Shown here in pieces: positions 857 through 4,341 of a stretch of 64,000 nt of DNA (its first letter is position 1; each line of letters opens with the position of its first letter). The DNA comes from the human T2T-CHM13v2.0 reference genome, Homo sapiens, in the NCBI RefSeq assembly GCF_009914755.1, contig NC_060936.1. One strand, 5' to 3'. The notes beneath the pieces were generated by a model. The model was not told the origin of the DNA. It worked only from the letters and a program-made list of their open reading frames with translations, and made no database searches. The translations under genes and the position numbers were made by a program.

Positions 857-978
857 ATAGAGACAGGGTCTCCCTGTGTTGCCCAGGCTGGTCTCGAACT
901 CCTGGGCTCAAGAGATCCTCCTGTCTTGGCCTCGCAAAGTGCTAAGTAGGATTACAGGCGTTAGCCACCACACCCGGC
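857..978 (-). mobile_element. Alu monomer (FLAM/AluJ left arm)
   Basis: gagacagggtctc...ctcgaactcctgggctcaag...ccaccacacccggc. Confidence 0.85.
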
Positions 979-1450
979 TGTAAAAATGTACTTATTCTCC
1001 AGCCTCTTTTGTATAAACCATAGTAAGGGATGGGAGTAATGATGTTATCTGTGAAAATAGCCACCATTTACCCGTAAGACAAAACTTGTTAAAGCCTCCT
1101 GAGTCTAACCTAGATTACATCAGGCCCTTTTTCACACACAAAAAAATCCTTTATGGGATTTAATGGAATCTGTTGTTTCCCCCTAAGTTGAAAAACAACT
1201 CTAAGACACTTTAAAGTACCTTCTTGGCCTGGGTTACATGGTTCCCAGCCTAGGTTTCAGACTTTTGCTTAAGGCCAGTTTTAGAAACCCGTGAATTCAG
1301 AAAAGTTAATTCAGAAATTTGATAAACAGAATTGTTATTTAAAAACTAACTGGAAAGATTGTTAAGTTCTTTCTGAATTATTCAGAAATTATGCATCATT
1401 TTCCTTCAAGAATGACAGGGTCAGCATGTGGAATTCCAAGATACCTCTTG

Positions 1451-2762
1451 ACTTCCTCTCAAGCTCCGTGTTTGGTCAGTGGAGGCCCATCCGAGCTCAG
1501 CACTGAGAAGTGTTAGTTTCTTTGGGACCCATCTACCCTGACCACATCATGATGTTCATCTGCAGCTGTTGCAAGGTGTTCAGATTGTATAAACATAAAT
1601 GTCACAAAAACTTTAAAAGAAGTGCAATTCTCAAAAGGTTAGGTGGACTAAAGCATTCTGTAAAGCAACTGCTAATAATGAGCTTACAGTGGATTTGAAT
1701 TTGAAAAATATAGTAACAAGCCTGTCAAATATCTGCAAGAACTATGGAATAAAACTACTGATGCAGTGAAGACAGTTGAAAAGATCAAACAAATGCCAAG
1801 CTATATTTATAATGAACAAATTCAAGAAAAAGGACTACGGAAAGTTCAGGACATCAAAGAAGTCAGGCAAAACTCATCTTGACCCCTGTTGCAGGCAAAG
1901 GAACGCAGCTGGAAGAAAAGATGATATAACAGTTAACAGGATGCAGACATGGCAGAGGTTTCCTAAAAATCTCATTATCTATAACCATTTCTATATTTAC
2001 ATTTGAAAATCTCCTTTGGAGACTTAGAACCTCTAAATTATTGACTTATTTTTTATATAAGGTCACTCCGATGAAAGGTGATTACAAAATCATCTACATT
2101 GCTGTCTACAAAACAGATAATATGGATGTTTGATCGCATCTCATTGTTAACTCTTTACTGATATGTTTGTAAATACAGAAGTGAAATGTGGACATAAAAT
2201 AGTTACGCTATTTGGTTAATGGTACTAGACAACATGTAATTAATGACATTCAAAAATTTATGGCTAGTGATATATATAAAGTAAAATTTTCTTTGCAGTA
2301 AAATATGCCCTTTATTATAGAAGGGAGGATATAAGGAACCAACAGTTTGTATGAAAATAGCTCAAATAATATCTTTTATTTTGATTTTAATATTTCTTAT
2401 TTTGGTTTATTAGTGTCTTAGAACAAAATGGCCTTATATAATGAAGCCTAGTTATGCTGGACTGTTTTGATCTCTTTTAATTGTTCTGACAGATAGTTGG
2501 GGATGAGAGCCGAATAAGGTTTGCCTGAAATAACTGACACTATATAATTTCTGCTTTGGCAAATACTAAGTTCTAACTTGTCATTCCTGGTAGAACAAGC
2601 TTTATTTTTCGAGCCTAGCAATGATCTAGAAGCAGATGTTATCTCAGTGCCTTTTGCAATTTGTTGTGTGGGTTTTTTTTTTTTTAAAGCCACACAATAA
2701 TTTTGGAAAACAATGTATGGGTAGAACATGTGTCTGTTAATTGCACACAAAACCACTTTTAA
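1451..2762 (+). pseudogene. Processed pseudogene (retrocopy) of RSL24D1/RLP24: 5'UTR + decayed CDS (~1499-1966) + 3'UTR
   Basis: Across shifting frames the sequence reads [34 protein letters not shown] / [16 protein letters not shown] / EFEK..ELWNKTTDAVKTVEKIK / QAIFIMNKFKK / KVQDIKEVRQN / AGKGTQLEEKMI*Q, colinear with RSL24D1 ([57 protein letters not shown]...ELWNKTIDAMKRVEEIK...KVQDIKEVKQN...AGKGKQLEEKM). No introns, start codon lost, stops and frameshifts present. UTR extent is from recalled parent mRNA and is less certain than the CDS match. Confidence 0.9.
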
Positions 2763-2791
2763 TGGGTACAGAGTTAAATTTGAAGGAATAA

Positions 2792-2895
2792 GTTCTAGCT
2801 GAAGTATTATGAACTCCAAATAATGCTTTGAGGACCTCCAAAGGTAAAAGTACTAATCCCTTTGGCCATTTATTGAGAGAGAGAGAGAGAGAGAG
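2792..2895. repeat. Left arm of non-Alu inverted repeat (ends in (GA)n)
   Basis: Reverse complement matches 3278-3386 with only a few mismatches. Confidence 0.95.
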
Positions 2896-3050
2896 TAGGG
2901 TGACTATAGTTAATGTATTGAATGTTCTTGCTACAAATAAATGATATTTGAGCTGATGGGTGTGCTAATTACACTGATTTGATCAATACCCATTGTATGT
3001 GAAACAGTACATACACCATATTTACAATTATGTATTTAACATTTAAAATT
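2896..3050 (+). mobile_element. L1MA-like 3' end fragment (inside the inverted-repeat loop)
   Basis: agggtgactatagttaa...gctaattacactgatttgatc...tttacaattatgta resembles old L1M 3'UTR. Confidence 0.65.
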
Positions 3051-3277
3051 TCTAATATAAGTATCTCTCAAACTGTGGATTAACTTCTTGATTTATATTT
3101 AAATATGAATCTTAAGCAAAACAGTGAAAATAACCATCTTGATTTAGTGTTTTTCTCCCATATGTGAATTGTATATACTTAGGTGAGGACAATAAAATCA
3201 ACTGAACTGTAAGCTTAGAATAGGACTGAGGTAATTCTGCACAGCAACTTTACTAATGGTACATTGTTGCTTCAAAA

Positions 3278-3386
3278 CTCTCTCTCTCTCTCTCTGTCTG
3301 TCTCAATAAATGGCCAAAGGGATTAGTAGTTTACCTGTGGAGGTCCTCCAAGCATTATTTGGAGTTGATAATACTTCAGCTACAAC
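3278..3386. repeat. Right arm of non-Alu inverted repeat (starts with (CT)n)
   Basis: ctctc..caataaatggccaaagggattagta..tggaggtcctccaagcattatttggagttgataatacttcagctacaac. Confidence 0.95.
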
Positions 3387-3576
3387 CAAGCAGAATCTCT
3401 TTTTTTTGGAGGTCCTCGAAGCATTATTTGGAGTTGATAATACTTCAGCTTCAATTTGGAGTTGATAATATTTCAGCTAGAACCTAGTAGAATCTGTTTT
3501 TTTCCTTTGGAGGTCCTCAAAGCATTATTGGAGTTCATAATACTGAAGCTAGAACCAAGCAGAATCTGTTTTTTTC
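3338..3576 (+). repeat. Three ~70-nt tandem units (unit 2 has an internal ~24-nt duplication)
   Basis: tggaggtcctcNaagcattatt(t)ggagttNataatactNNagct..aaccNagNagaatctNttttttt starting at 3338, 3407 and 3508. Confidence 0.95.
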
Positions 3577-4341
3577 TGAGGAGTATCGGTAGCATAAATG
3601 TGATTATAAACATAGTACACTTGATATATGGAGGCAGTGACAGCTATTTTTACAAAATTTAAATCTGCAAATGGATTCAACATGTTTATGGGTTATTAAA
3701 ATTGTCTGATTTCTTAGGTTCTTTATAGTACACGTGTTGAAAATAAATGATTAAGAATTGTTTCAAGAATGCAATTATTTGATCTTAAATTTTTATGAGT
3801 TGTTAAAATAGAAATTATTTGAATATCATATATTTGGGTAACAAAAGGCACAAGTCTGAATGTGTTTCTTTTTCTGGAATGGCCATGCCTGCCCACTTTA
3901 GAAATACAAATATCACTGGGCAGCTTGAAGCAGTTGGGAGCCTCCAATGAGAGCAACTTGAGAGAATGATGTTGCAAGTTAGTAGGAGTAAGAAATGCTG
4001 TGTTCTCCCTGTCTTCTCTTAGGTCACATGGCAGCCTGGCCTAAGTGATCGTGAATGGTCTATAAGGGAGGTAGCTGGGACAGGGAGGGGAGTTTGGGCT
4101 AGCCACCGTACCACTTGTCAGCGTGAAAAGTAAGATTGTAATTGCCTGTTTAGTTTTCTGCCTCATCTTTGAAAGTTCCACCAAGCTGGGAACCTCTTGA
4201 TTGTGATGCACAAATGTAAGTACATCAGAAAAAAACAAAAAAACTGGCTTTAAAGCAGGAGCTTGTGGGCCCCTAAGCCAGACGGGGACTAGCTTTTGGC
4301 ATTATATAATTAAGATTTTTTAAATCCTTAATAAGGGTTTT

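What the first reader, a model, noticed from the sequence alone, without database searches (positions are those of the whole stretch)
3338..3576. Triplicated miR-155 sites with one masking arm: candidate three-register RNA switch
Seen: the outer half of the right arm is repeated three times. Each unit contains AGCATTA (3351-3357, 3420-3426, 3521-3527), the 7mer-m8 match to miR-155-5p (seed UAAUGCU). The left arm carries the complement TAATGCT once (2821-2827). Its outer ~55 nt can pair with unit 1, 2 or 3; unit 3 matches at positions where unit 1 mismatches (cctttgg, ctcaaag, gttcata, ctagaac). Inference: only one site can be occluded and edited at a time, so register choice plus A-to-I editing sets the number of usable miR-155 sites and hence MDM2/p53 dose. 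Unit number could vary between species or individuals.
Basis: partly seen in the sequence, partly recalled or inferred. Interest (0 to 1): 0.85.

Follow-up and report, generated by a model that had tools for sequence, protein, structure and literature searches.

The report
MDM2 3'UTR editing hairpin, triplicated arm
A primate-specific inverted duplication in the MDM2 3'UTR forms the long RNA hairpin behind the already known ADAR1 editing of this oncogene's microRNA sites, and the evidence points to one pairing register in cells rather than a three-way switch.

Summary
A 108-nt left arm (2789-2896) is complementary to 3277-3386.

This stretch is the known non-Alu, ADAR1 hyper-edited region of the MDM2 3'UTR. 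All 15 published editing sites map onto the left arm, the inner right arm and unit 1, including both end A's of the unit-1 miR-155 seed match. None maps to units 2 or 3, although the published amplicon covered them.

Seven polyA-tailed retrocopies of the MDM2 3'UTR act as dated snapshots. The oldest five carry one unit and no left arm. One carries three units without a left arm. The youngest, on chrX, has the full structure.

That chrX copy carries 7 A-to-G changes in the stem and no T-to-C changes. Four of the seven are modern editing sites. It looks like a retrocopy of an edited mRNA paired in register 1.

Folding puts registers 3 and 1 within 3.5-4.7 kcal/mol of each other, with register 2 worse. 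Register 1 forms first during transcription.

Verdict: this is a known ADAR1/miRNA system. Its anatomy and origin are newly explained here. The three-register switch is not supported.

The parts
2789..2896 (+). Left arm of the hairpin. It is an inverted duplicate of the right arm, inserted into an old LINE-like fragment. It carries TAATGCT (2821-2827), a (GA)n run (2875-2895) and 8 published editing sites (2803, 2809, 2812, 2813, 2842, 2852, 2855, 2872).
   Evidence: Inverted repeats I1 and I3; tandem repeat finder. Present only in MDM2 and the chrX:63.27M retrocopy; 3 retrocopies have 16-17 nt there instead. Editing sites mapped with hg19 = window + 69,234,201, and all 15 fall on A.
2897..3276 (+). 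Loop of 380 nt. Its first ~155 nt are the end of a multi-copy, LINE-1 3'-end-like fragment that starts near 2712.
   Evidence: About 35 genomic loci match window 2916-3000 at 72-91%. The LINE-1 naming is recalled and was not tested with a repeat library.
3277..3333 (+). Inner half of the right arm. It holds a (CT)n run (3278-3304), an AAAGGGA match to the miR-204/211 seed (3316-3322) and published editing sites 3306, 3308, 3318, 3328 and 3333.
3334..3405 (+). Unit 1, contiguous with the inner arm (register 1). AGCATTA lies at 3351-3357, and its first and last A are published editing sites (hg19 69237552 and 69237558).
   Evidence: G fraction 15% and 26% in MCF7, 10% and 9% in normal breast (Table S7).
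3406..3499 (+). Unit 2, with an internal 28-nt duplication (3428-3455 and 3456-3483). AGCATTA lies at 3420-3426. No published editing site was found here.
3500..3576 (+). Unit 3. AGCATTA lies at 3521-3527. It is the best thermodynamic partner of the left outer arm. No published editing site was found here.
3742..3747 (+). AATAAA signal of an apparently old proximal polyadenylation site. All retrocopies end 10-25 nt downstream of it.
   Evidence: Sequence; alignment of copies with A-rich tails; target-site duplications.

Best explanation
The region is a young, non-transposon inverted repeat inside the MDM2 3'UTR, and it is the double-stranded RNA substrate of the known ADAR1 hyper-editing.

Origin: the ancestral 3'UTR had one unit, which gained an AGCATTA match to the miR-155 seed in primates. 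That unit was then tandemly triplicated. Later, about 110 nt of the right side was copied in inverted orientation 480 nt upstream, with 2-4 nt microhomology at both junctions, making the left arm.

In the transcript: the left arm zips up with the first partner to be transcribed, the inner arm plus unit 1. This gives a roughly 108-bp, 93-94% paired stem with a 380-nt loop. ADAR1 edits both strands of that stem. The edits include A3351 and A3357 in the unit-1 miR-155 site, the miR-200b/c site in the left arm and the miR-204/211 site in the inner right arm.

Units 2 and 3 are by-products of the duplication. They offer two further, mostly unpaired and unedited miR-155 seed matches.

Shown here or in print: the anatomy, the mapping of the editing sites, the order of origin and the folding energies. 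Inferred: co-transcriptional trapping in register 1, the replication-type duplication mechanism, and any effect on MDM2 dose.
For: Anatomy.

Not Alu: the Alu-like high-copy intervals do not cover 2796-3404. PMC12085317 (passages) reports no Alu around the sites.

Editing map: the 15 sites of PMC12085317 Tables S3 and S7 all fall on A with one offset. They lie at 2803-2872 and 3306-3357, and ADAR1 knockdown lowered their editing. Sites 69237004 and 69237010 flank the miR-200b/c seed match (PMC4793219). Site 69237519 lies in the miR-204/211 seed match (PMC13184275).

No site at hg19 692376xx or 692377xx was found in 2 papers' supplements or in any main text. The amplicon spans 2506-3644.

Origin: the retrocopies share a 3' end and A-rich tails. 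Target-site duplications of 10 nt or more were found in 3 of 6 copies examined, and one of 8 nt in a fourth. Two copies carry MDM2's own Alu fragments in place.

K2P distance to MDM2 is 0.044, 0.070, 0.086, 0.102, 0.108, 0.27 and 0.39. The left arm is present only in the youngest copy. Copies have 1 unit in 5 cases and 3 units in 2.

Fossil edits: in the chrX copy, 7 of 9 lineage-specific stem changes are A>G and 0 are T>C. Four of the 7 are modern editing sites (p=0.04). The stem holds 7 A>G among 67 A's, against 4 among 283 outside (p=0.0012). The 4 copies lacking the left arm show 0 A>G there.

Kinetics: register 1 is the MFE until the 3' end reaches about 3530.
Against: At equilibrium the model prefers register 3, not register 1. 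MFE is -298.2 against -294.7, ensemble energy -314.0 against -309.3, and P = 0.997. The register-1 reading therefore needs kinetic trapping or model error.

The lack of reported edits in units 2 and 3 comes from site lists and one amplicon study. Similar tandem units can lose short reads, and I could not query an editing database.

The fossil evidence for unit 1 against unit 3 rests on a single A>G (3354).

The order of the one-unit chr11 copy (0.070) and the three-unit chr2 copy (0.086) does not fit a simple 1-to-3 history. The informative sites do not resolve it (1 against 0). An 8-nt duplication is also shared discordantly between copies.
Confidence: 0.7

Rival explanations
1. The left arm samples units 1, 2 and 3 as a three-register switch. 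Register choice together with editing sets how many miR-155 sites are usable, and so sets the MDM2/p53 dose.
For: One arm faces three complementary units. Registers 1 and 3 lie within 3.5-4.7 kcal/mol, and the MFE register flips with context: register 3 in 4 of 5 contexts and register 1 for 2300-4000. All four seed copies are intact in MDM2, whereas 2 of 4 are mutated in the chrX retrocopy and 2 of 3 in the chr2 retrocopy.
Against: Register 2 is 8-11 kcal/mol worse. Published edits and fossil edits mark only unit 1. No regulator of register choice is known. The structure formed by recent duplications, and unit 1 has since gained 2 uncompensated mismatches on the MDM2 lineage (3337 and 3349).
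Confidence: 0.07
2. A time-ordered two-state shift. Register 1 forms and is edited on the nascent RNA. The arm later relaxes to the more stable register 3. Site 1 is then edited, site 3 is masked, and only site 2 stays usable.
For: The growing-transcript folds switch from partner 3354 to partner 3524 once unit 3 is complete. The equilibrium preference is for register 3. With the 15 sites written as G, the gap widens to about 9 kcal/mol. G is a crude stand-in for inosine.
Against: There is no direct evidence that register 3 exists in cells. If it persisted where ADAR1 p150 acts, unit 3 should be edited, and no such site was found. Energy differences of this size are within model error for an 840-nt RNA.
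Confidence: 0.12
3. The hairpin matters only as generic long dsRNA: marking by ADAR1 as self, or Staufen or nuclear-retention effects. The miR-155 seed matches are incidental and have no measurable effect.
For: The seed match is not ancient: the two oldest retrocopies read AGCTTTA. The motif is not enriched in the window. Yang 2017 (PMC5520689, passages) reports editing effects on MDM2 that are independent of miRNA targeting, though for the inverted Alus. A short edited fragment alone raised reporter output by 60% in PMC12085317.
Against: Reviews report that Jiang 2019 showed a miR-155 effect on MDM2 that was lost with the edited 3'UTR. I could not read the primary paper.
Confidence: 0.2

Closest known systems
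Inverted Alu pairs (IRAlus) in 3'UTRs as ADAR1 substrates, including those in the distal MDM2 3'UTR
   Same: Intramolecular dsRNA from two inverted copies in one 3'UTR. Editing is clustered, ADAR1-dependent and found on both arms. Effects on mRNA fate are reported.
   Different: The arms here are not transposons. They come from a local inverted duplication of unique 3'UTR sequence. They are shorter (about 108 nt) and 93-94% paired, and one arm continues into a tandem array.
Editing-dependent loss of microRNA sites in the MDM2 3'UTR (miR-155: Jiang 2019; miR-200b/c: PMC4793219; miR-204/211: PMC13184275)
   Same: It is the same region and the same sites: 2803/2809, 3318 and 3351/3357.
   Different: The papers I could read do not describe the hairpin. 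One states that the lack of Alu points to other sequences or proteins. None mentions that the miR-155 match exists in three copies of which only one is edited.
RNA structural switches that gate microRNA access in 3'UTRs (for example the PUM1-dependent switch in the p27 3'UTR; recalled, not checked here)
   Same: A microRNA site is hidden or exposed by an alternative local helix.
   Different: No trigger is known here, and there is no evidence that more than one state is populated.
Genomic footprints of RNA editing in retrotransposed copies (concept recalled; my search found nothing)
   Same: A strand-specific A>G excess in a retrocopy relative to its source.
   Different: Here the excess is confined to a defined hairpin of a single gene, and it coincides with 4 modern editing sites.

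Membership tests
Inverted-repeat dsRNA substrate of ADAR1 in a 3'UTR | Two long complementary arms on the same transcript strand | tested here: met
   108-nt arms, 93-94% complementary, 380 nt apart, inside the last MDM2 exon (hub annotation).
Inverted-repeat dsRNA substrate of ADAR1 in a 3'UTR | Clustered A-to-G sites on both arms that depend on ADAR1 | tested here: met
   I mapped the 15 published sites: 8 fall on the left arm and 7 on the right. ADAR1 dependence is taken from PMC12085317 and PMC4341880 (passages) and was not measured here.
Inverted Alu pair (IRAlu) | Arms are Alu elements | tested here: not met
   The high-copy Alu-like intervals do not cover the arms. The unit plus its downstream tail (window 3305-3752) occurs at only 6 loci in the genome.
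Functional miR-155 target site | Seed match of 7mer-m8 type or better | tested here: met
Three AGCATTA matches, none followed by A, so none is an 8mer.
Functional miR-155 target site | Evolutionary conservation of the site | tested here: not met
   The two oldest retrocopies read AGCTTTA. The site appears only in copies with K2P of 0.11 or less. No other species' genome was available.
Functional miR-155 target site | AGO binding and repression by miR-155 | not testable with these tools
   Reported by Jiang 2019 according to reviews. The primary paper is not held.
RNA conformational switch | Two or more mutually exclusive structures of similar free energy | tested here: inconclusive
   Registers 3 and 1 differ by 3.5 kcal/mol (MFE) or 4.7 (ensemble), and the preference is context dependent. 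Register 2 is 8-11 kcal/mol worse.
RNA conformational switch | More than one state populated in cells | tested here: not met
   Editing sites, modern and fossil, mark register 1 only. This rests on site lists, not on structure probing.
Processed retrocopy of MDM2 mRNA (the seven related loci) | Common 3' end after a polyA signal, A-rich tail, variable 5' truncation, target-site duplication, and source-specific insertions carried along | tested here: met
   Target-site duplications of 26, 14 and 10 nt in 3 of 6 copies, and 8 nt in a fourth. None of 8 nt or more was found in 2 copies. The chr17 copy was not examined.

The most novel reading that the evidence does not exclude
The hairpin is a time-ordered register device. 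The nascent RNA pairs in register 1 and ADAR1 destroys miR-155 site 1. The arm then migrates to the more stable unit 3 and masks site 3. The amount of editing thereby sets whether one, two or three miR-155 sites act on MDM2. This would be a primate-specific rheostat on p53, built within the last ~40 million years by two duplications.
Probability: 0.1. Interest if true: 0.7.

Novelty: new member of a known kind. Interest (0 to 1): 0.4.

Why it matters
MDM2 3'UTR editing is used as a cancer-stem-cell biomarker, and ADAR1 inhibition is proposed as a way to lower MDM2. A 2025 study could not explain why ADAR1 edits this Alu-free stretch. The inverted duplication explains it.

Only one of three miR-155 seed matches is edited or masked. 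Editing alone should therefore not free MDM2 from miR-155 unless sites 2 and 3 are inactive, and reporter designs should take this into account.

The structure is predicted to be limited to catarrhine primates, so mouse models would lack it.

The retrocopies give a dated record of how a regulatory hairpin arose. They also suggest that it was edited in the germline tens of millions of years ago.

Tried and rejected
- LINE-1 family reading. I first read the related loci as 5'-truncated copies of a LINE-1 subfamily. I rejected this because the unit plus its tail occurs at only 6 loci and two copies carry MDM2's own Alu fragments in place.
- Rfam. Only two sub-threshold miRNA-like hits at 2652-2709, outside the feature. 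There is no known miRNA gene in the hairpin.
- Alternative energy parameter sets. They returned identical energies, so they were probably not applied, and I ignore them.
- G as a proxy for inosine. It creates artificial G-C pairs, so I treat as indicative only.
- Ordering the chr11 and chr2:104M copies by shared derived sites. Unresolved, 1 against 0 sites.
- Papers. Jiang 2019 is not held by DOI or by PMC id. Searches for a published description of this hairpin and for edits at 692376xx or 692377xx found none. A search for edited retrocopies found nothing.

Full report
**Observation.** The sequence is as described.
- AGCATTA occurs on the + strand at 3351, 3420 and 3521, and its complement at 2821-2827.
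- The repeat finder reports a left arm at 2789-2896. It pairs with 3277-3386 in two blocks: 57 nt at 93% and 49 nt at 94%. The outer half also matches unit 2 (91%) and unit 3 (97% and 93%).
- The array has three copies of the first half-unit and four of the second, because unit 2 holds an internal 28-nt duplication.
- Against the reverse complement of the left outer arm, unit 1 has 4 core mismatches and no gap. Unit 3 has 2 mismatches and a 1-nt gap. Unit 2 has 5 mismatches and a 3-nt gap.
- The motif itself is not enriched in the window: 10 found against 12.5 expected. The cluster is one site multiplied by duplication.

**What it is.** The window is chr12 of T2T-CHM13, and the region lies in the last MDM2 exon (hub annotation).

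Published hg19 editing sites map to the window with one offset, +69,234,201. I anchored this offset on two published statements:
- Sites 69237004 and 69237010 are the two ends of the miR-200b/c seed match (PMC4793219, passages and legend).
- Site 69237519 lies in the miR-204/211 seed match (PMC13184275, passages).

With this offset, all 15 sites of PMC12085317 (supplementary Tables S3, S4 and S7, read in full) fall on an A.
- Left arm: 2803, 2809, 2812, 2813, 2842, 2852, 2855, 2872.
- Right side: 3306, 3308, 3318, 3328, 3333, 3351, 3357.
- The last two are the first and last A of the unit-1 AGCATTA.

A further paper reports hg38 68843778 as a regulated site (PMC13671454, passages). It equals 3357 if my recalled hg19-hg38 shift is right.

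So the finding sits on the known, ADAR1-dependent, roughly 500-nt hyper-edited region of MDM2 (PMC6817451; PMC4341880). The miR-155 link is attributed by reviews to Jiang et al. 2019. That paper is not held, so I do not know which site they tested or whether they drew the hairpin.

The papers I could read do not describe the hairpin:
- PMC12085317 states that the sites are not surrounded by Alu and turns to protein partners for an explanation.
- Yang 2017 and the alternative-polyadenylation preprint deal with inverted Alus only.
- Searches found no description.

**Origin.** A search of the whole genome found related loci. I first took them for a LINE-1 family, because they share a 3' end at about 3752 and have variable 5' ends. 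Several results argue against that:
- The unit plus its tail occurs at only 6 loci, with all 8 candidates scored.
- The copies end 10-25 nt after AATAAA (3742-3747) with A-rich tails, whereas the MDM2 locus has no tail.
- Exact flanking duplications of 26, 14 and 10 nt were found in 3 of 6 copies examined, and 8 nt in a fourth. None of 8 nt or more was found for chrX:63.27M or chr2:137.4M, and chr17 was not examined.
- The chr11 copy (window 862-3752) and the chr2:137.4M copy (624-1540 and 3045-3752) carry MDM2's own Alu fragments in place.

They are therefore processed retrocopies of a short-3'UTR MDM2 mRNA, and they serve as dated snapshots. K2P distance to MDM2 was measured over 2895-3277 plus 3577-3752; structural states are.

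| Copy | K2P to MDM2 | Units | Left arm |
|---|---|---|---|
| chrX:63.27M | 0.044 | 3, with the 28-nt duplication | present |
| chr11 | 0.070 | 1 | absent |
| chr2:104.5M | 0.086 | 3, without the 28-nt duplication | absent |
| chrX:24.77M | 0.102 | 1 | 5' end at 2991; arm site not covered |
| chr2:137.4M | 0.108 | 1 | 1540-3045 missing; arm site not covered |
| chr18 | 0.27 | 1 | absent |
| chr17 | 0.39 (poorly aligned) | 1 | not determined |

- Only MDM2 and chrX:63.27M have the left arm. Three copies have 16-17 nt of the surrounding LINE-like fragment in its place.
- The two oldest copies read AGCTTTA where the later ones read AGCATTA.
- The left arm's junctions share 4 nt and 2 nt with the flanks. 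This fits a replication template switch (inference).
- Its reverse complement equals unit 3 of the chr2:104.5M copy over the unit, and it is 98% identical to the chr11 right arm.
- Calibration: the preprint's statement that catarrhine MDM2 3'UTRs are over 90% similar to human and platyrrhine ones 80-90%. On that scale the triplication and the hairpin date to the catarrhine lineage (inference).
- One conflict remains. The one-unit chr11 copy is not clearly older than the three-unit chr2 copy (37 against 45 differences in 559 sites; informative sites 1 against 0). An 8-nt duplication is also shared discordantly. Unit loss or ancestral polymorphism must be invoked.

**Fossil editing.** I examined the changes specific to the chrX:63.27M copy.
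- Within the register-1 stem there are 9 such changes. Seven are A>G (2812, 2813, 2822, 2868, 3308, 3328, 3354) and none is T>C.
- Four of the 7 are modern editing sites (hypergeometric p=0.04).
- The stem rate is 7 of 67 A's, against 4 of 283 outside (Fisher p=0.0012).
- The strand asymmetry has p=0.009.
- The four copies that lack the left arm show 0 A>G in the same stretch.
- Left-arm changes were polarised by the complementary right-arm bases, because no outgroup carries the arm.

The simplest reading is that this copy was reverse-transcribed from an edited mRNA. Its units 2 and 3 carry no A>G, and unit 1 carries one.

**Registers.** All folds used window 2760-3600 unless stated.
- The MFE (-298.2) pairs the left outer arm with unit 3, with P = 0.997.
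- Blocking unit 3 gives register 1 at -294.7. Register 2 reaches -286.8 when the other units are blocked, or -290.0 when it is forced. With no unit allowed the energy is -247.2.
- Ensemble energies are -314.0 (register 3), -309.3 (register 1) and -305.7 (register 2).
- The preferred register depends on context: register 3 in 4 of 5 contexts and register 1 for 2300-4000.
- On a growing transcript, register 1 is the MFE until the 3' end passes about 3530.
- With register 1 forced, sites 2 and 3 are mostly unpaired (P paired 0.27 and 0.35).

The model therefore allows registers 1 and 3 and disfavours register 2. The cellular data I could reach show only register 1. No editing site was reported in units 2 or 3 within a MiSeq-sequenced amplicon spanning 2506-3644. 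None appears in the supplements of PMC13184275 or in any main text. Absence from site lists is not proof, and bioRxiv supplements were closed.

**Verdict.**
- The interpretation restates known ADAR1/miR-155 biology and adds a three-register switch that the evidence does not support.
- New here are the anatomy that explains Alu-free editing, the stepwise primate origin read from retrocopies, the fossil-edited retrocopy, and the point that only one of three miR-155 seed matches is edited.

Noticed in passing
window 3742-3760; loci L010, L012-L017: Seven polyA-tailed, 5'-truncated retrocopies of the MDM2 3'UTR all end just after AATAAA at 3742-3747. This implies long-term germline use of a proximal polyA site that is not among the RefSeq transcript ends listed by the hub (5009, 5123, 10265).
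   Followed up: partly
L012 5619-6689 (G000:C23:63276618-63277688): The chrX retrocopy keeps the left arm and three units. It carries 7 strand-specific A>G changes in the stem, 4 of them at modern editing sites, so it looks like a genomic fossil of an edited mRNA.
   Followed up: yes
window 2652-2709: A small local hairpin around a T-run gives sub-threshold miRNA-like Rfam hits: mir-308 at 23.5 bits (E 0.037) and mir-2797 at 21.1 bits. Both are far below their gathering scores, so this is probably chance.
   Followed up: no
window 1776-1908 (- strand) and 2789-3576: According to the hub table, alternative CPM transcripts on the minus strand have an exon at 1776-1908. Their pre-mRNA would therefore run antisense through the MDM2 hairpin and could form the mirror-image hairpin.
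   Followed up: no
window 2712-3052: The left arm was inserted into an old multi-copy fragment that looks like a LINE-1 3' end. Window 2916-3000 matches about 35 other loci at 72-91%. The family name is recalled and was not tested.
   Followed up: partly
window 3337, 3349, and the 1-nt gap after 3527: Since the chrX copy split off, the MDM2 lineage gained two uncompensated mismatches in unit 1 and a 1-nt deletion in unit 3. This gives no sign of selection to keep either register perfectly paired.
   Followed up: partly
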